Shown piece after piece: positions 3-54,389 of a stretch of DNA of 64,000 nucleotides. Both the position numbers and the translations under genes were made by a program. The DNA is from Tubiluchus corallicola (taxonomy: Eukaryota; Animalia; Priapulida). The stretch is taken from NCBI GenBank assembly GCA_030141605.1, contig JAQGDQ010000005.1, positions 488,607-552,606 on the forward strand, in the 5' to 3' direction. The notes under the pieces were generated by a model. It was not told the origin of the DNA. It made no database searches and saw only the letters and a list, made by a program, of their open reading frames with translations. The stretch's first letter is position 1. The number at the start of each line of letters is the position of its first letter.

Positions 3-130
3 AGCATAAAAAAACTGTTCGCTCACTTTAAAGATGAGTACAGACAAGAAATTCCAATAAAACAAATGGGCTATGAGAGCAAGTTGGAATTTATATCTCA
101 GTTTGCTCCAGTTTTAAATGTAATCAAGAA
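3..130 (+). other. LOTUS/OST-HTH-like domain (C-terminal part) at the start of the NOV-like protein
   Basis: Frame open from base 3: SIKKLFAHFKDEYRQEIPIKQMGYESKLEFISQFAPVLNVIK. This fits the LOTUS pattern L...Y/F...Y...IP....LGY.S..EFL...P....V. Confidence 0.65.
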
Positions 131-3100
131 AGCAGGCAACAACTCTGTGATAAAGATGAATAGGAATGAAACCACAGCAAAATACAGCTCAAGCATTCAT
201 CAAAAGTCGTGGAAGGAATTGAACAAAGTGCTTATCAAAAACACTTGTGAGAAGCTGCGTGAGTTGCAGAAATTGCCTGCAAATTCTAAAACCAAAGAAC
301 TTCAGGGTGATAATAATATGGCATGTGCTGGTTCTGTTGTTAATGGTGTCGGCTCATCTAAGAGACTATCTTCCTCTGCTATGGAAAAAAGTGAAACTGA
401 TAGTGATTGTTATATTGTTGGTACAGTGCCTGCAAACGAAGCTAGCAAATTGCAGCCATCCACAGCTGCAACTACTGATCAGAAAGTGATGTCTCAACAA
501 AGTCAGCAGAACCTGGGCATTACCAACCAATTTAATGCACACTCAAACCAAATGTTGAAACACATGGAGCACAAGTCAACTATTGATACTTTTTCTGGAT
601 GCTCTTCACAAAATCCTGTGTTACCACCACGCTTTCAAGGTTGTTTAGCAAATGCTGGTCCCATTCCATTGTTGTCACTGCCAATACGACATCCAGAACC
701 ATTTATCAATATAAACCAACCGTGCAGACCTAGTTTAGACAGTGGCAGGTTTAATCTACAAGGAGATTCTTGTCTTTCAGATTACAAGTTAAGTTTTCCT
801 CCGTGCGGTGGGTCAAAAAAATTTTCTGAACCAGAAGGTAATATGAAACAACTTGCAGATTTTGATCAGCCTTTAATAGAAAATGCTAGTCGTTGCACAG
901 CCAGAACCAAAGAACAAGTAAACAACATTGCTCAGTTTTGCATAGATAGGCTAGCAGAGCTGAACGAATTTGTAAGCTTTTCAGCAATAGAAAAACTTCT
1001 CTGTCGGGAGCTAAAAATAAACAATGTGGTTGATTTGCGATTGGGGCTACGAAGATTTGACGATCTTGACTGTATTCAACAGCATTTGCGAACACAGCGT
1101 AGAGTAAATGCATGTGTTCAAGCATTTGTGAAAGTGAGAAACATTTGCACTTTGTTTGAACTTAATGAAAGTTTAGGCGATTATGTGCCCAATAAAATGG
1201 CCTTCGAAACCCTTAAACTTGGTCCTTTGACACGACAACCAATTTTGTATGATATCTTTAAGATTCCGAGTGATATGACTGACATCTTGCCAATAAGAAC
1301 AGCAGATGTATATGAACATCTTCGTAACTACCTGTCTAGAAATGACTTGTGGACGCAGAAGATTGATATGGAGAAATTCATGGAGTATTTAGTTGAAGTG
1401 TATGGTGTAAAAAGTCCATACTATCTAGGAATTAGAATCACTAGTGGAGCTCTAATGATACAACAACTTAAAAAAGCTCAGCGAGATTGTGGCAGTTGTG
1501 TCAGATCAACAAAGGCAGAGCTAATGCAAAATACAGAGAAAAAGCTAACAACAGCATTCCGTCAATTCTGTGAACAGCTTCTAATCGAGGAAAATGGCAC
1601 TTGTAAAATAAAGTCACACTTTGCTCAGTTTGATGCCATGTCTGTTGTTCAGCAGTTTGCCAATGTTTTTAAAGCACTATACGACACTCTCCATTTAGCA
1701 CATCTCATGTCGCAGCCAGGAAACACAGAGGAAAGACACTGGCGGCATGTGGGAGAGGTAATGAAGTTCATGGCTGCGGTGAAAAAGTTGCCTATTTTTG
1801 CACAGTTGTTTCAGTTGGCACTGATAGTTTGTGCCGATGTTGGAACAGCTACAGGTTACTGTAACCATGTTTTAGAAGTGTTGGCTAATGTTATGCCTGC
1901 TAGATTAGTCACATCACATGAAATACCTGCTGATTTGGATGTGAAATCTTTGGGACCAGAAGTATCTACAGGTATATTTTATTTGTTTTTTATTTTACTT
2001 TATCACGTCTTAAATTTTTGAAAAATGACTTGCGAAATTGTTTGTTTTATGCCTAAAATCTGTGTTTGCATTTGCTCTTTTTCTGCAAACATCTTTTTGT
2101 GCCTTTATTTTTAATTTATATTGTTTGCAGTTTGTTTAGCTCTGATAAGTGATGAGTGAGTGATGATGGTTATATTGTGAGATAGAACAACTATCAAAAC
2201 TGTAGAATGGGGGAGGGCAGGTTTTCGTGATTTGTCAACACATATCTTCAGCTAAGTTGGAAATTGGCTATTTGCTTTGCTAATTTTATTAATCAGTAGA
2301 AATGTTCTTTCCTTATAATATATCTCTGTTGGTATTTTATTATTAGTTTTCACTTATTTAGATGAGGTTATTGCCAAGGTAAAAGAATATCTACACAAGT
2401 GTTTAATTGCTGGTTCATTGACTCTAACTCATCTGCACAAAATAGAAACTAAGCTCAACAAAGATTATGATGTTAACCATTTTGGCTTACTGAGGCATGG
2501 GAGCTTTTTGGAATTCTTAACAAATCCAGCTATAAAACCGGTATTTGAACTTCTTTTTTACACATGAACCGTTTGAACTGAGATGGAAAGAAGCTAAACA
2601 GCACTTCCCCAAAGGACGGGAAAGTTTTGTTTGATTCTGGTTTCTGCAATATCATTAATTTTTAACTAAATGCAAAACCATCTTATGTTCATATTTTAAA
2701 TATAAAAACATATGTTATTGTTAGTTTACTACCTTATTATAATAGTTAGGCTGTAACTTGTAATATAGTAATATAGTATATAGTTGTGTAGTAATTTTCA
2801 GCCTTGTGGTTTTTATATATAATGTTTTCGAATTGTCTTGTTAGTTGTAATGGATTGCAGACGTAAGTTTGAATACTAGGCATACATTGTAGTACCTGAT
2901 ATGTGACCACCTTTAATTTTTGAAATTATAAAAGCTTTATTTTACGTGTTCGCACACTTGAGCTTTCTACGTGAGTTATCAGTGCTTGTGCTTAACTTTG
3001 CCGGTCATCGTTTTTTTCCAAATGCTTTGCATAATTTATTTTTATTTTGTGTTAGGTTTTGGAAGAAAGTGTTGGGCAAACATTGGGGAGTGGTAAAGTT

Positions 3101-4819
3101 ACTACGCGTAGCCTTTACTGTCCATCACGTCATGAACTCGTTGAATTTTTAACTCAGTGCAGAACTATTGGCATGTCTCAGGCAAGTTATTGCATTTGGA
3201 ATTTATAAAAGAATGTGAAAGCTTTAGTTGCTACAGGACTAAAGCAGGTAAAGAGGTAAGGTCAATTTGCTGTTGGAGTTGTTAATTTTCTAGTCTTGCG
3301 CTGTTTGCTAAATCTCACTAACATATCTGGCACATTATCTAACACAACGCACATAACATATAGAGAAATGTAATTATAATGTATAATCTTCTTGTGATGC
3401 ATATGTGCATATTGTGTGATATTCATTCTAGGATAACACTGAATACACGGCCTGTGAGTTCTTCAAAGTTAAAGAAATAAAAGACTTTGGACATGGTTCA
3501 CTAAGTCACCTTTTACAAATTGCTGATAAGAGAGTGAAAGACTCTAAGACATTTCCAATAATCTTTGAAAAGCCTCTTTGTGATAACAGTCCGTAGGTAT
3601 TTTGATGATAATCTTTTCTTGCATTAAGTTTGCTCATTAGTTGTAATTATATTAGTGTAACAACACATATAAATGGAGATGTTCAATTGAGTTACTCTGA
3701 ATATTTACTGTACTGAGTTTTGCAAATTGAAAGCTGTTTCCTTCACCTATTATAACACATCTCATTTGTTATAACAGTAGTTGTAAACCTTGTCTTCCTT
3801 AACAAGAGTATGCTTATATATATATATTATGTTTATTCGCATATAAATATCAGTTTACATGCTTAGTGTAATAAAAACATATTACATAACAATAACAAAA
3901 GGTAAGTAATTAGCATGTGCATTCAGTTAGTTACAAGGGTTAGTAACATGGATATTACTTTTTTATTAGTAAAGCCGGGTATATAAAATTCATTACGAGC
4001 AGTCCAATATAAAACATAGGAGACAACATCACAGTCATTATAATGATCATTCGTAAAATCTATTGCATAAAACAGGATGCGATTTTTCCCTAGTGATATG
4101 CAGTGATGGGCCTGTGCTCACATAATTTCTTTACATTTTCAAATTACTGCTATGGCAAATATATCAGTTAGGTTTACAAAAATGTATGTGTGTTTGCAAG
4201 ATTAGCTCTAGTAGATAAGGAGCCTTTGAACATTGATAGCTGTTGATGATACACTTTTACTGGAATTGCATGATAACCAGTTGCTATTATTTGCTGTCGA
4301 AAGGCTTTGACAACGTAATAAATAATCTTAAATTAGTCACTATATTTTTTGTTTGTCCTTTTAATTTTAGGGTGAACAAAAGTAAATGAATGAAATTCTT
4401 GCTTTTATAATATGTGTAATATGTACAAGCATGCATTCTATACCAACTGAGAATGTCCCAAAGCAACAGGCTATCATTTACATTGCAATTCCTTCCAAAA
4501 CTGTTGCAGTTGGAATAAACAGCGTAACATTGTGATGCATATCTAGTAACCAATGTCTAATAACAAATGAATACTAAGCATTTATAAATAATGGAACAAA
4601 AGGCTTGTATGTACTTACATATATAGATCAACGCTGAATCTCGACATTCACGCCACGACAAGTAGATATTTTTTATGTCGCCTAGACTGTTCTGCCCTGA
4701 ATGGTGGCTACTGAATGGGCATTCGTTTTTTAAAAATTCATTTCTGTCCGAGATATGAGGGAAGGGAAGTGAGGTGTTGGGTGAGGAGGAGATAGAAGAG
4801 AGAGGGGGAGGAAGTGAGG

Positions 4820-4867
<48 letters not shown>

Positions 4868-10800: not shown

Positions 10801-13800
10801 TTTATTAGGTGAAGAAACACTCTGCCTTGTTTTGTCTTTGATGCATTTTGATTTATTGCTTTTTAATTTCCTCTACTTTAGAAGAAACAGTCAGATTTTG
10901 CACTTGGTTTTGCTGACATTGATAGTGATCTGGATGATGTATACGAATTTGTTGAGGAAGAAGATGATGATTACGAAACTCTGTCAGATTCTGAAGATGA
11001 TTCAAGTATTCAAGAAATAACCCCAATGCTTAGACATGCAGGAAATGTGGGTGATACTAGGGACCTACAAATTTTTGAAAACAGTTTCACAAAAATGCAT
11101 AAAAAAGTTGACATGGATGTGACAAAAGACTCTCCTGAGACAACAAGTGTTGAAGATATTGTCAAATGTTTGTTAAGTGATATACTAGCTGAAGTTGAGG
11201 TGCGTGTGATTCAACTTGAAGATGATGTAAGCTGTGTAGAGCCCGAAGATAAATGCAAGAAACTGATTGAATTAATAAGGGAAGAAGAATTTGGCGTTGG
11301 CATAGAGCTAAGTGAAGATGGAAAAAAACTGATGAAAAAACAACAGGAAAGATTAGGCAGGAGTCTAGAAAGACTGTCCAAGGTAACAATGTTAACAGTG
11401 TGTAAGAGATGTAAACAAGTTGATGTATTTCAAAAATTCAAACTTTTTTTAAGAAAATAATAAAAATTGTCTGTTTTTGGATTCAGCAATAGTTTGATAT
11501 ATAAGTTCTTTGTCAATACTGGCCAATCCAGCAAAAAATAATTTCTAAGCTGATGCTTCAATGCTGTTTTTCTCAAATGACTAATGAAAAGAAATATGAA
11601 GCTGTTAATTGCAATTTTTACGCTTGGTATTTTTTTACTAGTGTGACCTTCCTAGTACTAAATTATTGATGTTCAGTATTTTGAACTCACAGCTATGTCA
11701 ATCTGAAATTTACTGCATGCAAATTTCGTATAATCTTAATTAAAATTTGTTTTAATGCAATTAAAAAGGCTTGCTTGATTATTTGCTTTTGTCCAAGGAG
11801 CAGTTTTATTGTGTGTTTTAACACTTAATGTTAATGTCACAGGAATTGTACAGCAAAGACACACACTTTGTTTTGGAGTTGATTCAAAATGCAGACGACA
11901 ATGAATATCCATTGGAACTAAATGACATTCCCTCTATTACATTTATTGTCAACAGAGATGAAGTCAGTGTTTTAAACAATGAATGTGGGTTTCAAGAAAA
12001 AAATATTCGTGCAGTATGTGATGTGGGTAAGACAACAAAAGGCAAACACAAATATGGATATATTGGTGAGTTTTTCATGTTTTAATAGATTAGTACTTGG
12101 TCATTACAGTTGTAGCTATTAGAAATTAATAGTTACTCATGTGTTTGTACTTTTTTTACTTTGGAAATTTGTTTAGTTTTGAAGAAATTGAATTTTCTTT
12201 GAATTTATATTTTCGTCTGTTGTAAATTCTTAGTTTTGTTCGCATGTTACATTGTGACGTGTATTCACTGTTTGCAAACAATTAGAAAATGGTTTTATTT
12301 AAATAACCATTTCAATATTTATACATTTTCTAGGACAAAAGGGCATAGGCTTCAAGTCAGTATTCAGAGTCACTAACAAGCCTGAAATTCACTCGAATGG
12401 TTATCATATGATGTTTGACTTGGAGTGTGGACCAATGGGCTATATCCTTCCTCACTGGTTGCCATGTGCCACCAACTGTCAAGACACAGCGTGAGTTGAT
12501 TCACATTATGGCAGGTTTTGTATTCTGTGTTATTGTTACGGTATGTGAAACACTGACCTGCTGTTAGGCTGTGTCTAAAAGTTACAAGTAGCCTTAAAAT
12601 AGAATTTTTGTTGCAAGTGTTAATTCACATTATAGCAGGTTTTGTTCGGTGATATTGTTATGGCATGTTAAACGCAAACTAGATGTTAGGCTGCGTCTAA
12701 AAATTACAAATAGTTTAACAGTTGCGAATGTTATGGTTTTGTTTAGTTATGTTGTCGAAAATCTCTTCTTTTTTGCCAGTAGTGGTTAAATAATGCATAG
12801 TGCGATATTTTTGTGATGCTTTGAATTCAGTTTCAAAGTCATATTGACAATGTAATATTTTTTCACACTCTATGTACACTATATTATACTGTGGGAACGT
12901 TTTGTGTTCACGTGGAGTTAGCTGCTAATTTGAATGTACGTTTACAGTGCTCAGTAATTTGCTAATTTACACAATTTTTAAGTTTGCAGTAACAATAACA
13001 ATCACAATGACGTATTTACCTGTCTCAGTGTTCACTTGATTATATTGTTATTACAATGATACTTGTAATTTTTGCACACTGAAAGTTATTGCTTTGTGCT
13101 TTCTTCAGAAAAGCCACAATAATTTCCAGTTATACTGCATATGATTTATAATATCAAGTGTACTTCACATGTTGTTTCATTCTATCTTACTATTTTTTGG
13201 TTAATGTCTGTGTTTCTTAGTGAGGCATATGTGTATCAGCTGAATAATTTTTTGATAAAAATGTTCTTGCTGTTCGTTATTGTTGCAGCATTCAGTCTGC
13301 TAGACTATTGTTAATTACTGCTAGTTGCTCAAACTTTTGATTCTAATGTTATGTTTATTTTATATAAAATGTAGTTGGACTACCAGAATAGTTTTACCTC
13401 TCAAGCCAAGTTTATGGGAGGAGACAAAACATACCCCAGAATCGCTAGCTTCTCGTTTCCATGATATCCACCCAGCTTTGCTTTTATTTCTCCACAGATT
13501 AAGAAAGATCATTGTTATAAATGAGGTAAATAAATGCAGCTTTTCCTTTCACATGTCGTTCTGTGTATTTAGTAAATATATAATTTTTTTGCCAAAAAAT
13601 GCTTGTGTTAAGTCAAAACGATATCATATCTAAAAAAATGTGCGTAAAAGTGATGCTGATTAAAAAAAATTATATCTTTCTTTACATGGCAAGTTTGCGT
13701 TTTAGATTATATGATTTAAGAAAAGGTTTTTAATGATGTCTTAACTACTATTCTAGGTTGAGAATGCAACGTTGGCAATGCAACGCCGTGACCTGGATAA

Positions 13801-22800: not shown

Positions 22801-24884
22801 TTCAGTCTGTCTCTCCTTGGAGTTCACTTGTGGAAACTTGGCCAGAGACGGAAGACCAACAGTACCTCATCAAAGACTGGCGATCAAAGGAACTCATGTG
22901 CCTGCTTAAAAAAAACCATATGCCTAACACAATGCGTAATCAGATGACACATTTGTGTACAGTACTTGATAAGGTATTGGTGTTTATTATAATTAATTTT
23001 ATCACCTGGACTATAAAGCATTTTGCCATTTTTCTCATCTTTTTTCTTAATCATCAATATATTTTCCTGAGGATTTCTGAAACTAAGTCTGAAGACATCA
23101 TTTGCTTTGTTTAATCTTATTTTTAACTTCGGTTTATTTTAGACTTTTAGACTTAATGATCTATCTAACAACAATTTTGGAAAAGCATTTATTGGGTGTT
23201 GCAACTTTTTAGTTTTAACCCCTTGAAAAGTGATATTAATCATACTACATTTTCTGTGTTAGGAGTGGGATACTGGTGCTAGATTTAAACAGTATACCGA
23301 AGCAGAGGTTTGTGATGGTGATGGTAATGTCTTATGTACCACAGTGTCCAGCTTTAGTTTGCTACTTAAAACTACACCTTGGTTACCAACAGTCAATTTT
23401 CGTGGTAACAGCCAGGAGACACTGTCCATTCCACATAATGTTTATCTAAACGTTCCGGAGATTAAAAAGCTACTAACTGAACATGCTTTGTATTTGAAAG
23501 GTAAGGAGGAATCATTTTTGTGCTGTGTTGAGAAGTGGGTTGGTAAAAAGCCATATGCATAGTTCACAATTTCCCTAAGATTTTTCAGTAAAAATCCATA
23601 GAAAGTGAAAAGGACTTCAGTTTGTGTATGAGTTGTCTTTCATGTATGATGAATGAAAAATCACACAATTAAAAAACAAAGAAAATTAAAAAAGAAAGAG
23701 TCATAGTTTTTCGAAATTTAGATTTTTTACTAAGAAAATTCGATCACTGTTAAACAGATTTTCCTGTCCCTGTTGACTGTTTAATTGAACTCATTGAATT
23801 TGCACAAAAAATTCTTACTTTCAATTCAATAGGCAATTTCTTTGAAAAAATATTTCGGCCATGGGTAACCCTCTATCACCTGTTCTGACTATCTATTTTT
23901 AGAACTCATTGAATCTCACATTTTACTTCTTTAAGCGATACAAGAAAGTGATGATGTTCAGATTTTGACGATTTGCTCTGAAGATGGAACAGATTGTGAT
24001 GATAACTGTCGAATGTTAAATGGATTTTAACATTAAATTGTGTAAAACATTATGATCATTGTCATAATTTGCAAAAATGATCAGTTGCTTTTAATAATGG
24101 TTAATGCAGCTAATTCTGCTGGGACAGTTTAATTAGATATGCACTTTTTATATGTAGGACTACAAGCCTATTAGGGCACATAGTAAAAAAAACCTAGAAT
24201 ACTCAACTTTAAACTGTAAATCGGCTGTTAACTTCAACAAACAGTACTCTTGCTTTTTGTACCCTAAATGTATTCAAGTGACCTGAATTATACAAAGTTT
24301 ATCTGTCACTCATATGTCTTTATAACATTGTCTTATTCCGTCTTTTATTTGTGTTGTTATTAAAAGCAAATTATTAAACTAACAAATAATGCAATTTTTT
24401 ATATTGAATCTTGTCTTAAGGTTGTTTGTGACTACATTTCTTTTGTCTTGCATATAAATTTAGCATGTGTTAGGCAAGCACTACAATCTCCCGTGAAAAT
24501 TTTTCTCATGCTGTAATTTGGCTGAAATGGTGCCCAATGTGACCAACAGTCAAGTTTGTCTTGTGTCCACTTGTGACTAGTGATGTTTTGTTTTGAGCAT
24601 ATATCTGAGCACTACTAATCATGCTCTACACACTGCCCCTACATAAGCCCCTTTCCTTGTGCTCAAATATTACATTAAATGGTTATTTATATTCATCTGA
24701 AGAAGATCTACAGTTGCTGTTCAAAGCATTGTTTCTTTCCTTTTTCTTGTTTCTTAAATGTGGAACTTATTATTCATCGTCACTGTTCTTGTCATTTAAG
24801 AATTTTAAGAATTTATTTATATTGTCATTCATGTAGTTACTTAGGATTTAATGAAATGATATCATATAATTGCGAAGCAGCACG

Positions 24885-24981
<97 letters not shown>

Positions 24982-27900
24982 TGTGGGGGGGTTTGTATGG
25001 GTGTGAGTGTGGGTGGGTGTATGTGGGTGTGGGTGTGTGCGTGCATGCGTTTGTGTAAAAGAAGCATTTTAATCCTAATTTTGATGCGGTATAAAGACTT
25101 GCAATACTTGTTTGCTAAATAAGACCAATTGTTTGAATAAACATGTAATTTTTCAGCTAACATCAATGTTTGTGAAAGCACATTTGCAGAGCACATAAAC
25201 TTAAAAACAGTACTGACAGTGGATGCTTTAATTGAACACTTGCAAAGCTGGTCTGCAAGGGATCATTTAAACTCTAACATACCTGCCTTGTTTTCAACCA
25301 GTCTTTCACATATGAAGGTAAAGTGATTTTTAATGTTTCATATCTTGTGTTGTGGTTTTTTTTTTGAGGTAATTTAGTCATTTTTTGGCTTTTAGAGAAA
25401 AGACTAATTGTTACCACTGGCTGGTGAGTCCATTTTAACAAATTACTGTAGTTTGGACACTGTTTTTTATGTGGATATAGACAGTCTTTAGACAGTCAAT
25501 ACTAGAATCATGTTGCTTATAATTTTATGTTAATACAGGACCCAGTATCACATAGCCGTCTCTAACTTAATGACACCATTATTTATAGTTAACTGAATGT
25601 AATAATGACATCGTTAACTTTGTAACTTTATTTTGTGAAACCAGCCCCTTTTGCCATTTAATACATTTTAACACTATTGTTTTTAGGCTGTCTACTTGTA
25701 CTTGTCCCACAATGTTCCACCAAACAAGTTGAATCACATTCTAGCAAATCATCCTGTCATATTCATCCCATCTACAGTAGCAACGAATCCTGCTATGGTG
25801 ACTCAGGGTAAAATAGTTTTGATCTAAATTTGATGTTTAAAGAAATAAAGACATTGCATGTTTTTACACCTACACCTGATCCCCTCACAACTGTAATACA
25901 GAATTTAGATTTTAGAAGTTTAGCATTTTATAGCTGTTTCATTTGACACTTTACTTGACTTTGTTGAACATTTCATAAAAACCATTAGTCTGTATCTTTC
26001 AGCTAATAATAGATGAGATATCTAGACCTGTAATCATGTTTGTAATGGTCAATCAGCTAATGACCCAACTTCGCCACCGTGGAACTGTTTTCAAATTAGA
26101 GTTTACAAGAATATGTAGATTCAGTCAAAACTTGTGTGACATGACAAATGCAGTTTTAGTATATGCTCAAGTTTGGATTTGCACTTTACGACAATTTATT
26201 ACTACACATCAAATTGTTTTCATTCTGCAAACAAATAAAATTGTTAATGACAAATGGATTTTTCAGGTAAATTTCACTTTGCAAAAGACCTTTGTTGGAA
26301 TGATCCATCCGGAATGATGAGTAAATATCAAGCTTTGATGACTGAGTCAGGATTTCAGCCGCAGCTATTTCTCTGTGATATTTATTATCAGGAATCTGAA
26401 AGATACAGCAAAATTAGAGTAACATTTTGTGCTCATAATATTTAAACTACCTAAACAATTATGCTTTTGTAAGCATAGTTATATAACCTTTTTACCAAGT
26501 TTTCTATGAATAAGTAAAGTTGATTTGAAATATAATCTAAGTTTGTACCTAACGTAAGAATTTCAATAAGGAAAAATTAAGTTCGTGTTATGGAAATCTC
26601 AATCACAAAAAATGGCCAAACCATACAATTTGCATCTGCATTTTTGTGGGGTGCAAAGTGAAGTAGAGTTCTTTCTTGAAATTGGTAGTTTGTGAGTATT
26701 TTAACAAGTATGTTCTGACAGTTCTTTTTCTTTTACCACAATCACTTGGATGCAAGTATAGCAGTATTGAGGGAGCTTGTGTATTTCTGCTTGCCGCCTC
26801 TGTTTTCTCTCAAATAATAGACAACAAAAGATATTTTTATAAATATTTGCTGCTACCTTAGAGTAAAAATAAATTTGTAGGCATTGTGTTTTGTTTTATT
26901 TATTTCATGGCCATATCCAGTTACCTACAGTTTGGAATGTTTATTTTTGTTGAAATTTTTAGGAGCCAGACTATCGCCAGTTATTCATATATGGAGGTGG
27001 AGTGAGAGAAGATCCACCAATAATGGATTATGTACAGCTTGTACAAATTATCGCTACCAAAAATGAACCACCCACAAAGCCAATCATTCATGATGTGTGT
27101 GTTATATTTGAAACACTTGGCAAGAGATTAACTACAGGTAATTTACACTGCTGAGCAGCTGAGTATATAATCATCTTGCCTGTCTCAGCAAGACCATGCA
27201 CTGCATTTAGAATACAGATATTTTTTAAGTTTTTGAATCTAATTTTTGTTGAGTCTATAGTCTTTAAGCCAACCATAACCTGCTTGGGAAAAAATGAAAA
27301 TAGACGCAATAATTAATGTCAGTGTCATGTGCTTTGTCAAGTTTTCCGACATGTTCTAACAGTGGTGATGATGACAATAAAACGGTGGCTGTGGCTATGA
27401 CAGTATTTTATATGAGGTGTAATCAACAATGGTGGGGTTCTAAGAGCTCAGGCAAGTTTTTTAACTTAGGAACATAGCAGTTATTAGAAAGGTTACTTGA
27501 ACTTGAATATTGAGGAGTTCATCGGAAATGCAAACTTAAACTGAAGTTATAAGTTCATCTACTAAACTATGACAAAAAATTAAAAAATAAATAATTTCAC
27601 AGGAAACAGCGGTGTTAAGTTATACCAGCACTCAGATCGCACCGCTTTGGAACTGGAACTCTGCCAAACTCCAATTATTAACTTAAACTTAAGTAAATTT
27701 CATTCTGACTGGAGGAATTTGAACTTTAATTAAGCCAAATTCTGATAAAATTAATCCAAATGCAGGCAAATTTAGCCAAATCTAAGTGCAAAAATAGCTA
27801 AAATATTGCCAAATTCTCAAGGCAAATTCTTGAATGTTAGCTAAATAAGGATACATGTACAGGCTTACATACTTAGTTCATTAGTGCTGCTATTTAGGTA

Positions 27901-30900
27901 GTTACTATCAACTTGGAACTTAAGCTTTGCCAAAACCTGATGGTGAACTTGAACTTGAACTTTCATTTCTGGCTCGGAGGAACTTGCATTAAAATGCTTT
28001 CACAGACCAAAATTGATGAACTGAATCCTCTGCATTAAAACTTTTTTTGGTTGTATAGTAGTGCATTTAGGCATTTTTCACCAGCTAATTTTACATTTGT
28101 GTTCAAAACTAAGTGTAACTGGAAATCAAGTGTAACTAGGATCGCTTTGCAATAAAATTATTTTTCCATAAGTTTGAAGCAGTTGCAAGATTAATATTTT
28201 TATTGAAATATATTGAAAAATTGAAATATTGAAAAAACTATAAAAATCTGCTTCTTTACACCTAAAAACATTTAAAAACATTCTAGATTTATAGTTGTCA
28301 TATTTTGCTCTTGTGTGCATATACTTCGTATACATTTAACACACGTAAATCTTGTAATCATTGAATACACATAAGTTTACAAGCTTGAAAGGAGCACGGG
28401 CATAGTGGCACATTTATTTATGTATGTGTTGAAATTGAAACATTTTCTGCCATTTTTTCATCACTTGTACTTTTTTTATTTTTTAGGACAGTTAAGCAAT
28501 GATATGTCCAATGATGTGGATATAAATAACCTTAAAGAAAGTCTACTGCAAGCGCGAATTTTTCCGACGAAGTGCAGCAAATGGGTATTTAATGTGAATT
28601 TGTTCTTACTTTAATACACGTTAATTTTATTACCCAGTTTAAAATTTGGAGTTGATGAATGCGATTTGCCTTGTTATTCACTAAATTTTAACACTGAAGA
28701 CTTAATAAAATGAGGTTAAAAGAAAATTTGCTCGTGCGTACGTGCGTGTGTATATATGTAGAGAGAGAGCGAGAGAGAGGGAGGGAGGGAGGGAGAGAGA
28801 GGGAGGGAGAGGGAGAGAGACGGGAAAGGGGAGAGGGAGAGGGGGAGAGAGAGAGGGAGTAAGCTAATCAATTTGTTTATTTACAAGGTCTCATCAAGAG
28901 ATGATCCTATATTACCGGATAATGCAGCATTGCAGAAAGTTTTCAGTGCCTGTCGTGAAATTATGTTTCTTGACATTGACGTGTCTCAGCAAAGGATAAT
29001 GGAAAAACGATACAAATTAGAAAGTATGTTTATCAGTACATTTTAATTTATATTAAACAAATAAGTAGAGCATACTTACTTTGTGTTGGATTTGGTAAAT
29101 TTCTTAATATTGTAGATGGTTTCTTCTACTTTTCTTAATAAAATTGTATTTTTTATTGCATGCTATAGTTCTTTTCTTCTCTATGATTATTGCTAATGCT
29201 TATTATTTCTAACAAATTAAGATTTGTACTGAAAAATATAAACCAGGTTATTTTACAGTTATTTGTAAAGTTTAAACAATATTATAAGTTTGACAGTTCC
29301 CAAATATATTGACTTATTCTACTTATCATAATAAAATGCTTGCTTATTGCTGAAATGTTTCAGATCAAAAGAAAATTAACGAAACCTTCGTTGGAGAGTT
29401 TTTACGTGTTTGTGACATAAAGAAGCTTAGTGAGTGCGTAGACACTGAGTTTGTAACGGAATCATACCAACCTTCGAATGCTACACAACACTACATATAT
29501 ACCATCTTACCTATCATTCAACGTTACCTATATACAAAACACGAGGATGCTTACCTAGCTGCAAAATCTCGGAATTTAGCAGCTGTTTTCAAAGTGATGA
29601 CTTGTGCATCTGTAAGTGTTGTTATGATATGTTTATAGACCATTAAAAAATGAAACTTGTGATGTATTTAAATTTTACAGCAAATATGTTTGAGTTCAGT
29701 TTTGAATCAGAGATGGAGAATTTCACGTGTATTAGCAGTACTAGTTACTAATATAGGATTGCTTGTGAAGGAAGCATCTACAACATGCAACCGAGAAAAT
29801 GCTTCTTAGTAACGGAGTTTGGCGTTCTTATAATCCTTGATTCAAACTTTGTGCAAGTTTCTTTCTGCATTTATTCAAATATTTTAGTACCCTTCTAATG
29901 TGAGGCTAGTGTAGGTTAGTACACCATAGTTAGCTATATACTGTGTATTGTTTAAATATTATCCGTGTAGAAACTTATGAAATAACTGGACTGATTATTA
30001 CACGTGACTTTATGTAAATGCATAATGAGGATAGTCATCAAATTTTGTTGGAACAGGATTATAATTTAAGCAATAATTATGTTCTATTATTTGTTTTTCT
30101 TAGTTTCTGGGCTGGAAATTAAATAATGATTAATTAGTAATTGCAATAATTACAAGTCATCTAACAAGTCTAATTAACCTTATTATGTGCCATTATTAGG
30201 TTGGCAAGTTGGAGCTTATCTACAGAATTAAGCATAAGCCAGAAGTTGTCGTATCAAAGCCTGAAATTTGCCGCATTGCTGAGGATGGCATGAATTTTTA
30301 TGTACATAAAGACAACTTGAGAGCAGACAGTGAGCTTAACAAAGAATTGTCTCGATTTATATGCAAGGGACATGAGGCTGCAATAGAAGGGATTAGGTAT
30401 GGTATCTTTTAGGGTGTTCATTTATCAGTATTATAGCCTTAGTGACACTATAATTCAACTTTACAGAAATTCTTTTGACACAAAGTTAAATTGAAAGGAG
30501 ACCCACTAGTCTCATTTTCTCATTTATAAAAACAGTTCTGAACTATGCCATTTTGGCTGTTTTTAGATTCTATCTTATACTTGTTAAAAACATCTTTTCA
30601 AAAATATGTTTACTTATTTAGAAATTTCTCAATCAGTCTGGCTGGTGTGTCTGTCTTTGACACTTGTAGTGCAAGTTACACAAATTAATTGGAATTTTTT
30701 GGTGTGATGAGTGAGTAACTTTTAAGTAGGTGGATTTCAGCTGATACTGGTGCACTTCGCAATATTTTCTAATGTCGTATTCAAACTTCACTGGAGTTTT
30801 GTTGGTTTTTGCCTTCAGTTATTTTATGTAACTTTTGTATATTACTGTCAGTAACAAATTTAATTCTTAATGCCAAGAATAGTGATAATTAATTAAGAAT

Positions 30901-33900
30901 TCCGCACTTAAGACAATGAAAAAATACAAAGTTCCAAACAGACAAGATCGTTTATAATCAGGTGATGAAAAACAGAAAAGAGAAAAAAATCACATAAAGA
31001 TATTAATACAATTTTTTAGTGTTTATAAATAAAAAACACCATACTTCAAAAAGGATGCACACATTAAAAACACAAATGGTTAGAAAATAAAAAATGTAAG
31101 GAAAACACAGATATAGAAAGTAGAACCAATGACCACAATCACTGTAACAGAGAGAGAGAGAGAGAGAGGTCCATATCCTACTTTAATGTTAAGCAAAGCA
31201 GTAAATGTGAGTTATTTGTATGCTTAATGCTTAAATATATACAATAATATGAATTTGAATAAGCTTGGGTCATCCTCATATTCGTTAGTCTTGATACTCC
31301 ATTCTCCACAATGGAGTTGTGGATAACCTTGATGCTCCATTCTCCTTAAAAATATGTGGTAAAAATAATAACACAATTGCAAATATAACTGGGGGAAATA
31401 GGGTAAAATTCTAAACAAGGATTGTGGTTCAGCCATTCGCAATAATACAAAACTTTTTTAGCATCAGGGCTTCATACTATGTTCTTTGACTTCAAAGTGA
31501 CATGTTTGATAAAATGTTTAGAGGACCATTTGATAACAGAACGGATGAAACCATAAAAGTGCCTGATGTGGAGCCAGAAGCTTTTCAGTTATTCTCATTT
31601 GTTTATACAGATGAACAAATCACTTGTGATACTGTCTTAACCATTTTGTACAGAGTTGAAAAGTATGGTATTTGTGGACTTGAAAATCTTGCAGAGACAC
31701 TTCTATTTCAGATGATTCAGTGAATCAGATGTTTCAGATCATTCAGATGTTTTAATGAGTGAAATGTTTCAATTCAGTGTATGTGTATCTTTATGCAATC
31801 TGCATTCTTTTATGAAGTGAACATACAAATGGAGTGCTTGGGTTTAAAATTTGTACAATTACCGTACGATAGGCTTCTAATTTTTTAAAAATGATGAATT
31901 GAAAATCACAGAACTGCTACTTGATTCAGTTCCTTAATGGGTAAATTCAAAATGTAGGCCTAACAATTTGGAGTCTAATACATGCAGTAAAAGGAAATTT
32001 TTAAAGTATGGCCCTTATCAAATATGTTTTCCAGCCATGGATCCCAATGTTTTCACTAGACGACCAGTGCTTTTTTGACTGTTAAATGATACTGAGATTT
32101 CAAATGTTTTGCTGTACCACCACAACAAGAAGTTGGGATCGACAATGTTTCCCACAAAAGTCTGCAAAACTATGCGTCATCCATTAAATGGATTTTCCAC
32201 TACATCCAAAATGTTTTAGCTTTGTCACCAGGCGGGAACACAAGGTTTTTCTTTATAAACTAAAAAAACTTGTGCCAGTACATTTTTACAGGTGATGCCT
32301 TAGTAAAAGTTGATATCGTAATCCTAGTGACAAAGATGAAATTGGATACTGTGTTAATGTTGACATTGCTCTTGTGTTGAGTGATAGTCGATTTTGTGCA
32401 CCATTAGTACCAGGTTGCCTTAAGTTGATAACAAATTTCACCATAAGGTTGTGACCTGCAATTTAGCACGTGTGACCTATGATAAAGTTGGCCATGGGAC
32501 AGTCTGTTACCTCACCTTTTTAGTTAACTGTTTTAGTCTAGGTGATGAATGTGATGAGTTTGTTAACAGTGAAACAGTTAGAGTTGGACTGTACCTTTAG
32601 AATAAAATGACACAACAAAAGTTACCGAATATCAACAAAACAGTTAATAGCATGCAAGTTGTTCATGTTTCAGTGGCTGTATAGTTTTTAAAGAATTATC
32701 TAGCCTGTATCATTCAGCTTGATTTTGATTCTTTCAGCGGAACAACATTTTTACATTGCGTTGTTATTTTAGTGGCATCTGTTTATATTGTAGCCGCATA
32801 GCTGCTAATTAAAAATAAATTGAATTGGTTTGTAATTATAATATAGCAATAGTAAACTCACAACCAGAAATGCTGAATTGGTTGGCAAGACACTATAATT
32901 GAGTTAATATCCAATGGGCTCAGTGGTCTTATGCTATCGTGTTAGATATGTAATTCAAGAGTTTGATTTGAAAGAGATTCATTTTCACTTTTTTATGTTT
33001 TTTTTCTATTTGCTCTGTCATGTTTGGTTCCAAAATTTGATTCTTGGGATTTCATTATACCCTTAACACTCACCTATTAGGTTTCTTCACTTTCACATTG
33101 CTTAAACTGGTGTTAAAAAAGAATTGGTTGTTGCAACTCTGCCTTACTAGGACTCCTGGTATATGCTTGTAATAACTAGGACCTTGGTATATTTAAACAG
33201 GAGTCTGATTATCTAAAAGACCATTATTCATCACTTTTATTTAGATGATCACAAAGGATAGGACATTTTTGGAACTGGTTAACCAGTTGCAGTTTGTCCA
33301 TTAAGATGAATGAAGCTATAATTACCAAACAGCCCAGGGACAGATCTGGGTCAGTCTGGCAAAAGCTTGATTTTGGGCTCAAAATAGCATTTTTTACTGG
33401 TTTTTTTATTTCAGAGGATTTTTGGCTCGGATCAAACCAAAACAGCTAAAGCAATCAGAGTTACTAGAACAGTACTTAAAAGAGGAAGACATTGAGGAAA
33501 TTCCCTCAAATGAAGAGGTGTGGCTTGTCATGCCTCCACGTGCTCCAATGCCACAACCTCCCTCTCCACTATCTGTACCCGTGTCATCTAAAGGTATTTT
33601 TGCGTATGCAGTGTTTTTACAGTCAAAACTGCTTAACAAAATGTTATCTCTGAAGACTAGTTACAAAAGTAAGGTAGTTGACACTGTGTTCCTACTAGTC
33701 ATTTTTACATGATAGGTTTGAGCATTTTCCATTAATCCTCACCAGACCTCAGCACATTTAAAATATCATCAAATCTATTTATGTAATTGCCAGGAATTTT
33801 CTAGATTATTTTGTTGTTCCGAGAATGTTGTATAGCCTCTAGTCTCCCGAAAATTTTTGTGACTACACTTGTGGAAATAAATTTACTGCCAAACCCCAGT

Positions 33901-36900
33901 TTTACTCTAACCAACATTTTTTATTTTGCTGCGGCTGTACTGATATGGCAAAGTAAACAATACTACTACTGCTGCTGCCACCGGGAATGTTGTATAGCCT
34001 CTAGTCTCCCGAAAATTTTTGTGACTGCACTTGTGGAAATAAATTTACTGCCAAACCCCAGTTTTACTCTAACCAACATTTTTTATTTTGCTGCGGCTGT
34101 ACTGATATGGCAAAGTAAACAATACTACTACTGCTGCTGCCACCACCACCACCATCACCAAAACTCTACACCACTACTGCTGCATTGCCAGTACAGTGGG
34201 CGTCATTTATTAGATTCACAGTTAACAGAATCAGTCGCTTAAATGACTCACAAATGTCTGGCATGGGCCACTCCAATTCAAAGTACATGTATGCAATTCA
34301 CTCAAATAACTCCACATAATTGACTCAATATTTTTGCTTCGTATGCTTAAAATACAATACCTGTGTGTTGAGAACTATAATGTAGGTAGAAACAATCATG
34401 TTAAGTACCATTTTGTTTGTAAGCTGGTACGTTTATCACGCACTGATATGCTGGGTCAACAGTTTTGTTTTGAGTCTGTCACTCGCTGCAATTAACCTCA
34501 TTGTTTCTGGAAGCTAAACTTGATCATTTGCCCTGCAGTTGCTTTTGAAGCTCCTGTTGGTTTTCGTGGAAGCACCACCAACAGCTTTTCACAGTGGAAA
34601 CACGGTTATCACCAACTTTAGCTCAATCATGTCAAGCATTAGGTGTTTTGAGTCAATATGTGCAGCATGCGATAGCAGATTTCTAATGTTTTTAAGAACT
34701 TTATAGAGCAACTTCTTTGTGAAGAAATGAAACAACAGACTTTGCACGATTTTTTCTCATTTTTTAGTGTAAATAAACAGATCTTTGGGATTTTTTTGCT
34801 AATTCACTTACTTATTCTTAAATAATTGCACAGATTTTTAAATAATTGGAGATAGGAATTTGACATTCATTAATTTCTAAAATTCATTTGAAGCTTTGCA
34901 GTGCATGCTAGCCTGATGAGTGATGACTCTATAGTAAAAATGCTACACCAGTCATGTAATAGATTCTGTCGGTTAATTAGCACAAAACACTTTCATCCAA
35001 AAGTGAGTCTTGATTATTAATTGCTGTTGCTGCTACTATATCTACCAACCATGAAATTTAAACTTTAACAAATGTGGGGGTTTCAACATGTTCTCTGAAA
35101 TAAAAATCTTTTAAGGTTCTAAGTTATTTTATTCTGAATTTTTAAATTTGAGGTCCACATGAACCCAGTGGATTGTTTTGTGACTTTTTTCAGTAGTTCA
35201 AAATTCGGGATGAAGGTTAATATGATTGTTTTTATAAACATAGCATTTTCTTATAAAAACATTTTATGCAATTTGTTATGACAAGTTTAATAGAACAAGT
35301 CTCAAAAGCAAAATTCATCTCATTATAAATGGGGGAAAGTCTGTCAATGTTAAATATTTCTTACAGAGCAAAAATCTGTAGTAAGTGATGTGCATACTCT
35401 TATGTCATGGCCGCCAATGTCTGGAAATGCAAGTAGACGAAACGCTAGTGATGGATCACATCCAGAGTTAAAGCTCTACCCAATCCCAGAACGACCACAG
35501 CAGGTAGTCTATATGCCACCACAAGAGATTTCTACAAATGAGGAACCTCCTGACAAAAAACTGATTTCGGACGTTGAGCAAATACCGGCTGTTGCAAAGA
35601 GCTTGAAATCTGACCACAGTGAATCAAAGAATGGCGTGCCCACATCTCACTCTGATAAGAAAATTGCAAAACCAACTAGTGCTCCCACAAGAGGAAGTGA
35701 GCCTGGTAAGGCAAATGTTTTAACAATATTTACATACAGTGAAAGTTTTGAGCATTTCTCAAATTAATACTCATCAGAAAAGTCATCTTAAAATTCATTC
35801 AAGATAAGATAAGTAATAGATAAGGTATTTTCTGTAGGCTGGCATTTGACAAGTCTAAGAGCTACTTCTTGATTAGTAGATCAAGAAACAACAATTTAAA
35901 AGTTAACATATTAATTTATTTCAATTTTAGAAACACTGGAACATGTAACAAAATTTTGATAGTAGTTTATGTTAAAGTGCATTCATGTAGTTTATGCAAA
36001 TGTGTCATTTTAAAATTTGTCATTTTTGGAAAAATGCTGCATTATCCTAAATATCTGTTACACTGATTACTCATATTTTTGTGATACTTTTTTGTGTTTA
36101 CAGGTGAACGACAAAAACATAAAATATCTACCAATGAAGTAGAAATTTGTAAAATAACAAAAAGTGATAGGGAACTGCAAAACGATAAAGCGGTTAGCTC
36201 TGTTACTTGTTCAAAAAGTGTTCAATTTCTCGGTCATACACAAACTGGTACAGAAGGTACATTTCTAGACCGTGGTGATGCTTCACCAGAGCACATTGAA
36301 GGACAGGGGCATGTAGAATTTTCAACTTCACATTCACCATTTCAGCAGCAACTCTCTGCTATTGCTCATCAAGATCTATTGATTAATGATCAAGACTACG
36401 TTCAGGAGTACATTAATTTTACAACTTCATTAAGGGATATGGAACATTCACCAATTAAGAATGTCTTTTTAAACTTAGGTATGTTACAATAATGCTTTTG
36501 TATTAATCGATAATTGATCAAAATTCAGTCTGATTTCTGAAATGTCACTAATACATGTTAAATTGATGACACGAAGCATGGGTTGTTTCTTGCCTGTATT
36601 TATTTTTCAATTTGCTGCTAAAATTTAATGGACATTTTATTTAGATGAAATCGTCACTGATAGTAATCCTGAAGTATTTGAGCACCTTGAATGGCATCAC
36701 GATATAGAAAACTTACCTTCTGAAATTCCTGAAGATTGCACAGGTTGGTTCAAGTTTGATAATAATAACTGCATTAAATGTTTTAATAAATATTTATTGC
36801 TTGATTAATAAATGCTTGTGGATTCTCTGACAATTTGCAGACACTGAATCAATTGGACGTTGGGGTGAAAATTTCATTTACACCTATCTAAAGCACATAA

Positions 36901-37452
36901 AGGAGACAGAGGAAGTTTCTCAGTTAATTGACGTTGTATGGGTAAATGAGCATAGTGAAACTGGTCAACCTTTTGACATTGCCTTACAGCTGAAATCAGG
37001 AAATGGCAACTTGCAAACTGTGTACATTGAAGTGAAAAGTACTGTTAAAGGTAAGCCATTTGTTAATTTAGGTGTATAGCACATTTATGAAGTAGTGCAG
37101 TATCATAATAAAATGTTAAAGCTTTGCGATTTCAATCTCTTTGAAATAGATGATCTGAGTTATCAACATGAGTACTTAACCATTCCAGGAAAGTCATATT
37201 GATAATTTGCAAATGCCCAGTCTGCTGTTTTGTTAATATGTTACTTAAGGTAACTATTTTATTTCTTTAGGAGATCGGTGTCTGTTTCAAATTTCAGCGC
37301 AACAGTTAAGCTGTGCTTTCAAATACAAGGAAAACTACCATTTGTATCGAGTATTTAATGCAGGCAGTCAAGCCAAAGCACATATTGTTCGGCTAAAGGA
37401 TTTGGCTAACAAACTGATTAGACAGGAAGTTAAATTATACATGTGCATATAA
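3..37452 (+). CDS. NO VEIN (NOV)-like giant protein: LOTUS-like + NOV N-terminal region + sacsin-type GHKL ATPase + C-terminal DUF3883 nuclease-like domain; 37 exons, 5' end outside the window, >2,900 aa
   Basis: Manually spliced exons, all phase-compatible: <3-1971, 2362-2540, 3056-3181, 3432-3592, 5701-5888, 6402-6656, 10225-10313, 10427-10612, 10882-11382, 11843-12065, 12334-12490, 13375-13525, 13757-13888, 14331-14484, 14778-14890, 14976-15129, 16291-16530, 17411-17611, 19393-19574, 20070-20271, 22553-22695, 22806-22973, 23263-23500, 25157-25317, 25687-25807, 26267-26418, 26963-27137, 28487-28584, 28888-29023, 29364-29611, 30200-30396, 33415-33593, 35367-35705, 36104-36478, 36645-36743, 36841-37050, 37271-37452 (TAA). 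NOV-type motifs: FETLKLGPLTRQPIL, CLRACPLLFDMDEWSMWAYIFAPQFG, RLHVLGVTLGIAEW, LIELIREEEFG...RLGRSLERLSKELYSKDTHFVLELIQNADDN, AFLPLRSYGFRFIIQGDFDVPSSREDVD..SAWNQWL. The frame is open from base 3, so ATG 66 is probably internal. Confidence 0.9.
4790..4868. repeat. (GA)n microsatellite / purine tract
   Basis: Direct reading of gagagagaga run followed by poly-G. Confidence 0.95.
5921..6059. repeat. Perfect 69-bp tandem duplication (2 copies)
   Basis: atatggttccaactgtctttatacagtgagtcaccagaattaatatgtgtctggagtgtaatactccca starts at 5921 and 5990. Confidence 0.95.
6760..8140. repeat. Degenerate tandem array (~440-bp unit, ~3 copies) of an interspersed repeat family
   Basis: Block aagtatt(t)ag(g)tattgtg..tagatgtgta...ggctttt.aaaagctgg recurs near 6808, 7251, 7681 and 8118. 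Related sequence occurs at ~57590-57810 in the HSBP1 intron. Confidence 0.7.
9270..9910. repeat. Degenerate minisatellite built on an (a)ctggcaaaa(tga) core
   Basis: Many copies of actggcaaaa/actggcgaaa/actgacgaaa, interleaved with tattgtactatttctaat. Confidence 0.8.
11843..13525 (+). other. GHKL (Hsp90/sacsin-like) ATPase domain exons of the NOV-like gene
   Basis: Motif I ELIQNADD, motif II NNECGF, motif III GYIG|QKGIGFKSVF (across the 12065/12334 junction), motif IV TTRIVLPLK. Confidence 0.9.
12497..12735. repeat. Diverged ~123-bp tandem duplication at the start of an intron
   Basis: attcacattat(g/a)gcaggttttg...tgttaggctg(t/c)gtctaaaa(g/a)ttacaa occurs twice. Confidence 0.8.
15220..15757. 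mobile_element. Tc1/mariner-type MITE (degenerate TIRs and subterminal inverted repeats)
   Basis: Left TA|cagagtggtacataatctttt versus reverse complement of the right end caggtggttcataatctttt. Inner inverted pair caaactttagtgtgaaagccccatatatc (~15324) / gatgtatgaggctttcacatcaaagatttg (~15638). Confidence 0.65.
18221..18957. mobile_element. Tc1/mariner (pogo/Tigger-like) MITE, copy 1
   Basis: TA|cagtaggcgccgcttaatacactcac ... gtgagtctgctaagtggcactg|TA. Homologous in reverse orientation to 34194-35012. Confidence 0.65.
20398..21406. mobile_element. hAT-like non-autonomous element containing a 40-bp minisatellite
   Basis: Degenerate TIRs tagggatgaaccgaa / ttcggtacattccca, with subterminal aaccgaa/aactgaa motifs. 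Confidence 0.5.
21195..21354. repeat. 40-bp tandem repeat, 4 near-identical copies
   Basis: Unit tgataatgcacttttctactgaactgaaacataccataat. Confidence 0.95.
24886..25050. repeat. Compound (GT)n/(GCGT)n microsatellite
   Basis: Direct reading. Confidence 0.97.
28733..28858. repeat. GA/GGGA-rich simple repeat just upstream of a splice acceptor
   Basis: Direct reading. Confidence 0.9.
31460..32120 (+). pseudogene. Decayed intronless BTB/POZ-BACK (BTBD1/2/3/6-like) pseudogene inside NOV intron 31
   Basis: IRASYYVL*LQSDMFDKMFRGPF...IKVPDVEPEAFQLFSFVYTDE.ITCDTVLTILYRVEKYGICGL (BTB), then BACK-like pieces VCIFMQSAFFYE, DELKITELLLDSVP*WVNSKC, KRKFLKYGPYQICFPAMD...F*LLNDTEISNVLLYH. Several in-frame stops and deletions; no introns. 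Confidence 0.82.
33823..34143. repeat. Near-perfect 162-bp tandem duplication (2 copies)
   Basis: gaatgttgtatagcctctagtctcccgaaaatttttgtgact... begins at 33823 and 33985. Confidence 0.95.
34194..35012. mobile_element. Tc1/mariner-like MITE, copy 2 (inverted relative to 18221-18957)
   Basis: TA|cagtgggcgtcatttattagattcacagttaacagaatcagtcgctt aligns with the reverse complement of 18900-18957. Internal taagtaccattttgtt is shared. Confidence 0.6.
36841..37452 (+). other. DUF3883 / NOV C-terminal PD-(D/E)xK restriction-endonuclease-like domain (last two exons)
   Basis: IGRWGENFIYTYL...VVWVNEHSETGQPFDI...VYIEVKST...FQISAQQL..A....ENYHLYRVF. These exons are absent from the ORF track. Confidence 0.88.
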
Positions 37453-38689: not shown

Positions 38690-39008
38690 CCATCACAAAC
38701 ACCACGTGCTCCAACACCACAACCACCTCTCCACTATCTGCATACGTGTTATCTAAAGATATTTTTTGTATGCAGTGTTTTTACAGTCAAAAATGCTTAA
38801 CAAAATTTTATCTGTGAGACTAGACTAGTTTTGCAAGTAGGGTAGTTGATATTGTGTCCCTACTAGTCTTTTTTTACATGATAGGTTTGAGTTTTTTGCA
38901 TTAATCTTCACTAGACCTCAGCACATTTAAAATGCCTACAGATGTATCAAGAAGCATCCTATCATCAAATCCATTTACGTAATTGTCAGGTATATTGTCT
39001 AAATTATT
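38690..39008 (+). repeat. Diverged duplicate of the NOV exon 32 end and intron 32 start (33527-33810)
   Basis: ccacgtgctccaa..ccacaacc..ctctccactatctg...atctaaag(g/a)tattttt...tatgcagtgtttttacagtcaaaa.tgcttaacaaaat...agacctcagcacatttaaaat is shared. The donor GT has become AT in the copy. Confidence 0.9.
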
Positions 39009-50908: not shown

Positions 50909-51367
50909 ATGTCATTAGTAGTACCAGAAAAATTTCAGCACATTTTGCGTGTACTGAATACCAACATTGATGGGCAAAGAAAAGTCATGTTTGCCTTGAC
51001 GGCTATCAAGGGCTGTGGTCGACGGTATAGCAACATTGTATGTAAAAAAGCGGACATCGACTTAACGAAGCGTGCCGGAGAATTGAGTGAAGAGGAGGTT
51101 GAGCGTCTTATCACAATAATGCAGAACCCGCGCCAGTACAAAATCCCTGATTGGTTTTTAAATAGACAAAAAGATGTTAAAGATGGAAAATACAGCCAAG
51201 CATTGTCAAGCGGTTTAGACAGTAAACTTCGTGAAGATTTGGAAAGAATGAAGAAGATTCGTGCTCATAGGGGTTTGCGTCACTACATGGGTTTGCGAGT
51301 GCGAGGTCAACACACTAAAACTACAGGTCGCCGTGGAAGAACTGTAGGTGTGTCCAAGAAGAAATAA
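50909..51367 (+). CDS. RPS18: 40S ribosomal protein S18 (uS13), CDS without introns
   Basis: [22 protein letters not shown]...[19 protein letters not shown]...[25 protein letters not shown], 152 aa. AATAAA at 51407. Confidence 0.98.
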
Positions 51368-54380: not shown

Positions 54381-54389
54381 GAGTTCAAC

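What the first reader, a model, noticed from the sequence alone, without database searches (positions are those of the whole stretch)
3..37452. Animal NO VEIN-like protein joining a LOTUS-like module, a GHKL ATPase and a PD-(D/E)xK nuclease: candidate nucleic-acid surveillance machine
Seen: an intact, in-phase 37-exon ORF of more than 2,900 aa. It has all four GHKL motifs, a C-terminal DUF3883 with the catalytic-type residues present (GRWGE...PFDI...YIEVKST) and a LOTUS-like stretch at the N-terminus. Known: NOV is characterised mainly in Arabidopsis development. LOTUS domains in Oskar, TDRD5/7 and MARF1 bind RNA or DEAD-box helicases in germ-granule and piRNA biology. GHKL plus restriction-endonuclease fusions are typical of prokaryotic conflict/defence proteins. 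Inference: this may be a single-chain, ATP-gated nuclease targeted through LOTUS, acting in transposon/virus defence or RNA-granule function. NOV-like genes exist in other animals, but I know of no assigned function, and the LOTUS fusion may be unreported.
Basis: partly seen in the sequence, partly recalled or inferred. Interest (0 to 1): 0.8.

Follow-up and report, generated by a model that had tools for sequence, protein, structure and literature searches.

The report
Animal NO VEIN/Tiamat ATPase-nuclease gene
This is an intact animal gene of the already described NO VEIN/Tiamat family, joining an ATPase domain, a nuclease domain and a likely LOTUS domain, and it likely works as an ATP-gated DNA-cutting clamp, although no animal member has been tested.

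Summary
My own exon model gives 37 exons, 2,920 aa plus stop, 34 GT-AG and 2 GC-AG introns, open at the window's 5' edge. ATPase and nuclease catalytic-type residues match 16-17 of 17 homologues. ATPase and nuclease exons hit the PADLOC Tiamat (TmtA) models (best E 3e-20 and 7e-11) and Pfam NOV_C. The N-terminal LOTUS is supported but cut by the window edge: no Pfam hit, but a homologue-trained HMM scores it above 0-of-986 shuffles. The novelty claim fails. [quoted passage not shown] Splicing, expression and activity of this gene are untested. One small possibly new lead: two of the 'unannotated' NOV N-terminal motifs look like five related winged-helix repeats, weakly LOTUS-like and present in plants too; Pfam and fold searches did not confirm it.

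The parts
3..37452 (+). NOV/Tiamat gene model, 37 coding exons, 2,920 aa in window, 5' end missing (frame open at window edge)
   Evidence: exons: 3-1971, 2362-2540, 3056-3181, 3432-3592, 5701-5888, 6402-6656, 10225-10313, 10427-10612, 10882-11382, 11843-12065, 12334-12490, 13375-13525, 13757-13888, 14331-14484, 14778-14890, 14976-15129, 16291-16530, 17411-17611, 19393-19574, 20070-20271, 22574-22695, 22806-22973, 23263-23500, 25157-25317, 25687-25807, 26267-26418, 26963-27137, 28487-28584, 28888-29023, 29364-29611, 30200-30396, 33415-33593, 35367-35705, 36104-36478, 36645-36743, 36841-37050, 37271-37452. Homology support.
9..152 (+). C-terminal two thirds of a likely LOTUS (OST-HTH) domain, aa 3-50; first helix upstream of the window
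   Evidence: Homologue-trained HMM, i-E 2.4e-4; 15.5 bits against 0 of 986 scored shuffles at or above it. ESM Atlas top hits OST-HTH, 0.88, a lead only. No Pfam hit.
906..1472 (+). Conserved NOV N-terminal block, aa 302-490, three ~62-aa helical repeats (R1-R3), shared with plant NOVs; weakly LOTUS/winged-helix-like
   Evidence: 286 hits at E<=0.001, most on this block; AlphaFold2 mean pLDDT 94.2.
2362..3592 (+). Exons 2-4: second N-terminal block, repeats R4 (aa 656-716) and R5 (aa 738-795)
   Evidence: hhalign R4-R5 probability 95%, R1-R4 86%, R2-R4 87%; R4 and R5 profiles hit plant NOVs.
11245..15129 (+). Sacsin-type GHKL ATPase and its extension, about aa 1173-1580 (end of exon 9 to exon 16); catalytic-type E1230 at 11876-11878
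   Evidence: PADLOC TmtA hits on exons 10, 11, 12 and 15, best E 2.9e-20; weak Pfam SACS on single exons; motif residues identical in 16-17 of 17 homologues.
16291..33593 (+). Middle region, exons 17-32 (helical repeats, Fold B and metalloprotease-like fold in the published scheme; folds not modelled here)
   Evidence: 23-36% mean identity to 9 animal homologues, colinear; fold names.
35367..36743 (+). Low-complexity linker before the nuclease, exons 33-35
   Evidence: 11-19% mean identity; S/P/E-rich.
36841..37452 (+). NOV_C (DUF3883) PD-(D/E)xK nuclease, exons 36-37: E2800, D2836, E2854 (37029-37031), K2856 (37035-37037); stop at 37450-37452
   Evidence: Pfam PF13020 above its curated cut-off on each exon alone (33.0 and 25.4 bits against 22.1); TmtA E 6.5e-11 and 3.1e-6; 16 of 17 homologues share each residue.

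Best explanation
The gene encodes an animal NO VEIN/Tiamat protein that likely works as a two-copy, ATP-driven clamp whose C-terminal nuclease is predicted to nick or cut single-stranded DNA, while its N-terminal LOTUS domain would steer it to RNA-protein complexes or a partner helicase in a likely surveillance role against foreign or aberrant nucleic acid. Shown here: intact frame, domain order, Tiamat/NOV membership, conserved catalytic-type residues. Taken from the bacterial relative: ATP hydrolysis, ssDNA cleavage, weak dsDNA nicking, phage defence needing the catalytic glutamate. Predicted in print: dimers through both catalytic domains, P-body location for many LOTUS-bearing members. Inferred: that the animal protein keeps these activities, that LOTUS does the targeting, and that the role is defence. 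Odds: family identity 0.98; active ATPase plus DNase about 0.75; surveillance as the main role about 0.45.
For: TmtA models hit 6 of the 10 stretches tested (exons 10, 11, 12, 15, 36, 37). All GHKL and PD-(D/E)xK key residues are kept in 16-17 of 17 homologues from animals, two plants and a foraminiferan. ATPase exons 10-11 are 63-68% identical to 9 animal homologues, the middle region 23-36%, the pattern the preprint reads as a conserved engine with a variable sensor. B. cereus Tiamat hydrolyses ATP, cuts ssDNA, nicks dsDNA, and loses defence as E44A. NOV knock-down in N. benthamiana raised PVX 1.7-2.25-fold. The family is patchy: not detected in tetrapods or Ecdysozoa as full NOV, a pattern common in immune genes (own knowledge). 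LOTUS; 6 of 17 long homologues have Pfam OST-HTH at E<=0.001.
Against: No eukaryotic member was tested for antiviral or nuclease activity in the Tiamat preprint. The plant effect looks indirect (dampened defence-gene induction) and the two ssDNA geminiviruses were unaffected, which a direct ssDNase would be expected to hit. Plant NOV is nuclear and essential for development, and zebrafish NOV is broadly expressed. The LOTUS here is incomplete, has no Pfam hit, and 11 of 17 long homologues have no Pfam OST-HTH, so it is not needed for the core function. Neighbours are housekeeping genes. Small departures from the homologues: T1282 where all 17 have S, and Q2872 where 10 have E and 5 have Q.
Confidence: 0.45

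Rival explanations
1. Exapted housekeeping or developmental regulator: the clamp acts in nuclear transcription or RNA processing, as proposed for plant NOV, and any immune effect is indirect.
For: Arabidopsis NOV is nuclear and embryo-essential; knock-down blunts a transcriptional programme. Broad tissue expression in fish. Mainly vertical inheritance in animals; my tree puts the model beside 6 molluscs at 89/89, unstarred. An acanthocephalan NOV transcript tracks body size and is female-biased.
Against: Not detected in whole animal lineages and pseudogenised in Thlaspi arvense, so not universally essential. Nuclease residues are kept in 16 of 17 homologues.
Confidence: 0.33
2. RNA-granule RNase: LOTUS places it in germ granules or P-bodies, where the nuclease cuts RNA (piRNA-like or decay pathway).
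For: LOTUS in 316 of 918 eukaryotic members; 191 predicted in P-bodies, about half of them with LOTUS. The plant virus affected was an RNA virus.
Against: B. cereus Tiamat did not detectably cut ssRNA. The P-body call is a language-model extrapolation from human proteins.
Confidence: 0.13
3. Sacsin- or Hsp90-like chaperone or scaffold whose nuclease fold only serves dimerisation.
For: The ATPase is of the SACS type; the nuclease domain is predicted to be the dimerisation module and the middle has TPR-like folds.
Against: Catalytic-type nuclease residues are kept across animals, plants and a foraminiferan; the bacterial enzyme is an active DNase.
Confidence: 0.07
4. Gene-model artefact: two or more genes joined, or a pseudogene.
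For: Exons 33-35 are poorly conserved; the start codon is not in the window.
Against: No internal stop over 8,763 nt with canonical splice sites. Single annotated proteins in molluscs, an echinoderm, an annelid, fishes and plants span the same order of domains; 15 of 17 long homologues carry both SACS and NOV_C, and the 2 that lack NOV_C are marked partial.
Confidence: 0.02

Closest known systems
Animal NOV/Tiamat with N-terminal LOTUS (zebrafish wu:fj29h11; mollusc, echinoderm and fish 'protein NO VEIN-like'); bioRxiv 10.64898/2026.09.30.754977 and 10.64898/2026.09.30.755639
   Same: Same domain order, similar length, 29-38% identity over most of the chain in named animal homologues; LOTUS ahead of the conserved N-terminal block.
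   Different: No architectural difference found. Number of LOTUS copies unknown because the 5' end is outside the window; long homologues that have any carry 1-4 upstream of R1.
Bacterial Tiamat (TmtA), B. cereus
   Same: GHKL ATPase and NOV_C nuclease match TmtA models at both ends.
   Different: About 1,170 extra N-terminal residues, 36 introns, housekeeping neighbours instead of a defence island; activity tested only in the bacterial protein.
Plant NO VEIN (Arabidopsis AT4G13750)
   Same: Plant homologues from Dendrobium and Puccinellia share the N-terminal block, ATPase and NOV_C. Arabidopsis NOV itself was not aligned.
   Different: Plant NOVs have no canonical LOTUS (my LOTUS HMM found none in 5 plant-clade sequences).
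Sacsin (SACS)
   Same: SACS-type ATPase.
   Different: One ATPase unit and a PD-(D/E)xK end, not three repeats with J and HEPN domains.

Membership tests
Tiamat (strict definition of 10.64898/2026.09.30.754977) | Hsp90-like GHKL ATPase domain | tested here: met
   TmtA E 2.9e-20 and 3.9e-13 on exons 10 and 11; motif residues conserved. Pfam SACS stays under its cut-off on single exons.
Tiamat (strict definition of 10.64898/2026.09.30.754977) | C-terminal NOV_C/DUF3883 PD-(D/E)xK domain on the same chain | tested here: met
   PF13020 above cut-off on exons 36 and 37; same open frame as the ATPase in the model. Joining rests on the model and homologues, not on RNA.
Tiamat (strict definition of 10.64898/2026.09.30.754977) | [quoted passage not shown] | tested here: inconclusive
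   Colinear sequence homology to NOV proteins; folds of this region were not predicted.
Tiamat (strict definition of 10.64898/2026.09.30.754977) | ATPase and DNase activity; antiviral defence | not testable with these tools
   Shown only for B. cereus Tiamat.
Eukaryotic NOV (10.64898/2026.09.30.755639) | Conserved N-terminal motifs shared by plants and animals, ahead of the Tiamat core | tested here: met
   Animal-trained profiles of aa 302-490 and 656-716 hit plant NOVs; exons 5-8 are 31-39% identical to 9 animal homologues. The paper's seven HMMs were not available, so matching my blocks to its motifs 1-3 is inferred from order.
LOTUS/OST-HTH (PF12872), aa 3-50 | Match to the OST-HTH profile or fold | tested here: inconclusive
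   No Pfam hit on the truncated piece; significant hit to a homologue-trained LOTUS HMM; Atlas lead 0.88; single-sequence model too poor (pLDDT 53). Likely a LOTUS, about 0.9.
LOTUS/OST-HTH (PF12872), repeats R1-R5 | Match to the OST-HTH profile or fold | tested here: inconclusive
Extended LOTUS (Vasa-binding class; class definition recalled) | C-terminal extension helix that binds DEAD-box helicases | not tested
   A helix is predicted at aa 67-90 in a low-confidence model; no comparison to Oskar or TDRD5/7 was made.

The most novel reading that the evidence does not exclude
The first two 'functionally unannotated' N-terminal motifs shared by plant and animal NOV are five degenerate LOTUS-derived winged-helix repeats. 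The LOTUS link to RNA or RNA helicases would then be ancestral to all eukaryotic NOV, plants included, and the canonical LOTUS copies of aquatic animals would be an expansion of that array rather than a separate fusion; these repeats would be the module that turned a bacterial antiphage DNase into an RNA-coupled eukaryotic machine.
Probability: 0.35. Interest if true: 0.5.

Novelty: new member of a known kind. Interest (0 to 1): 0.22.

Why it matters
As a gene it adds one more intact invertebrate-type member to a family that two recent preprints already map across eukaryotes. The open question it touches, whether animal NOV/Tiamat is still an antiviral nuclease or has been exapted, is real but is better tested in zebrafish or another model than here. 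The only possibly new element is the repeat structure of the N-terminal motifs. If they are LOTUS-derived, plant NOV gains a testable RNA or helicase-binding module and the claim that plants lack LOTUS needs qualifying.

Full report
Observation. I read window 1-41000 and listed stop-to-stop frames. I hand-picked 37 exon candidates and snapped them to splice sites with a script that demanded an open frame. The model has 37 exons, 8,763 nt and 2,920 aa with one terminal stop at 37450-37452; 34 introns are GT-AG and 2 are GC-AG. The frame is open at the window's first bases, so the start codon is missing; no genome is held to recover it. The model aligns colinearly with annotated proteins of molluscs, a crinoid, an annelid, fishes, Hydra and plants, at best 35.4% over aa 304-2920. 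Five homologues together hit 30 of 37 exons by tblastn and nothing outside them. Exons 33-35 form a poorly conserved linker and are the least secure.

Domains. Exons 10, 11, 12, 15, 36 and 37 hit PADLOC TmtA (Tiamat) models, 6 of 10 stretches tested, best E 2.9e-20 for the ATPase and 6.5e-11 for the nuclease. Exons 36 and 37 each pass the Pfam NOV_C cut-off. In an alignment with 17 long homologues, E1230, N1234, D1278, G1293, G1296 and G1298 are shared by 17 of 17, and T1348, E2800, D2836, E2854 and K2856 by 16 of 17. Motif labels and the equivalence of E1230 to B. cereus E44 are recalled or inferred; B. cereus Tiamat was not aligned. Of 17 long homologues scanned with Pfam, 15 have SACS plus NOV_C and 6 have OST-HTH at E<=0.001.

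LOTUS. The window's first 56 or 86 residues have no Pfam OST-HTH hit. I built an HMM from 88 LOTUS domains of 62 of the 156 homologues then held, seeded on Pfam hits and without the window protein. It matches aa 3-50 to positions 24-70 of 75 (i-E 2.4e-4 in the whole model); the first 100 aa score 15.5 bits, and 0 of 986 scored shuffles (of 1,000) reach that. The ESM Atlas puts OST-HTH clusters first at 0.88, under its 0.9 threshold. A single-sequence structure was too poor to use. I read this as a real LOTUS cut by the window edge.

What is in print. bioRxiv 10.64898/2026.09.30.754977 (seen: abstract, introduction, methods section 8, results parts 1-3 of 5, discussion, and 12 of 25 keyword passages) defines Tiamat as GHKL ATPase plus NOV_C and finds 918 eukaryotic members. 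LOTUS occurs in 316 of them, in aquatic lineages including sponges, cnidarians, molluscs, echinoderms and fishes, and in no land plant; 191 are predicted in P-bodies. Purified B. cereus Tiamat hydrolyses ATP, cuts ssDNA, nicks dsDNA weakly and does not cut ssRNA; no eukaryotic member was tested. bioRxiv 10.64898/2026.09.30.755639 (seen: parts 1-4 of 6 of the text) shows that NOV knock-down in N. benthamiana raises PVX 1.7-2.25-fold, leaves two geminiviruses unchanged and dampens defence-gene induction. It reports full NOV in many animals but not in tetrapods or Ecdysozoa, LOTUS in some, and three unannotated N-terminal motifs. PMC12690905 (two passages) notes a female-biased acanthocephalan NOV transcript. 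PMC11232893 was seen as a search listing only. Millman 2022 and Tsugeki 2009 are cited through these preprints. The preprints' supplements could not be seen and may bear on the N-terminal motifs.

Mechanism. By family, the protein would dimerise through both the ATPase and the nuclease, close on a substrate held by the middle region when ATP binds, and cut exposed single-stranded DNA, perhaps with a helicase; this is the preprint's model and is untested even in bacteria beyond the two activities. LOTUS would add RNA or helicase targeting. I put active ATPase plus DNase at about 0.75 and surveillance as the main role at about 0.45. An exapted nuclear or RNA-processing role is the close rival (0.33), supported by plant essentiality, nuclear location, broad fish expression and the indirect look of the plant virus effect. 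A tree of 23 rows (model plus 22 of the 24 long representatives; P0006, P0115 and six isoforms left out) places the model beside 6 molluscs at 89/89, short of starred support, in line with vertical inheritance in animals. Neighbours are a GFOD-like oxidoreductase, RPS18 and HSBP1.

Verdict. A real, intact gene, correctly described, but an ordinary member of a family whose architecture, LOTUS fusion and surveillance hypothesis are already published as preprints. New member of a known kind; interest 0.22.

Noticed in passing
window 40627-41643 (-): GFOD-like Gfo/Idh/MocA oxidoreductase, long exon, convergent with the NOV gene.
   Followed up: partly
window 50909-51367 (+): Ribosomal protein S18 with an intact, intronless 152-aa frame; could be a retrocopy or a true intronless gene.
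   Followed up: no
window 54288-58419 (+): HSBP1 exon at 58177-58419; the frame at 54288-54563 may be an earlier exon of the same gene but had no Pfam hit.
   Followed up: no
window 31490-31723 (+): Isolated BTB/POZ fragment inside intron 31 of the NOV gene (E 2.2e-8), probably a gene remnant.
   Followed up: no
window about 18010-19340, 14008-15341 and 33949-34582: Very high summed contig depth in run X1 (up to 3,505, 625 and 1,276 against mostly under 25 elsewhere) points to high-copy repeats in introns; no clear terminal inverted repeat was found for the first.
   Followed up: partly
window 45263-46439 (-): Broken reverse-transcriptase (LINE-like) remnant; RVT_1 hit at 46131-46439.
   Followed up: no
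window 38702-39008 versus 33536-33810: An 84-86% identical copy of the 3' end of exon 32 and the start of intron 32 lies about 1.2 kb downstream of the stop codon.
   Followed up: partly
window 3182 and 5889: Two GC-AG introns among 36, after exons 3 and 5.
   Followed up: no
window about 61100-61900: Assembly gap (run of N) flanked by simple repeats.
   Followed up: no
P0117 cluster: Dendrobium chrysotoxum has six near-identical NOV or NOV-fragment proteins with close locus numbers, suggesting a local expansion.
   Followed up: no
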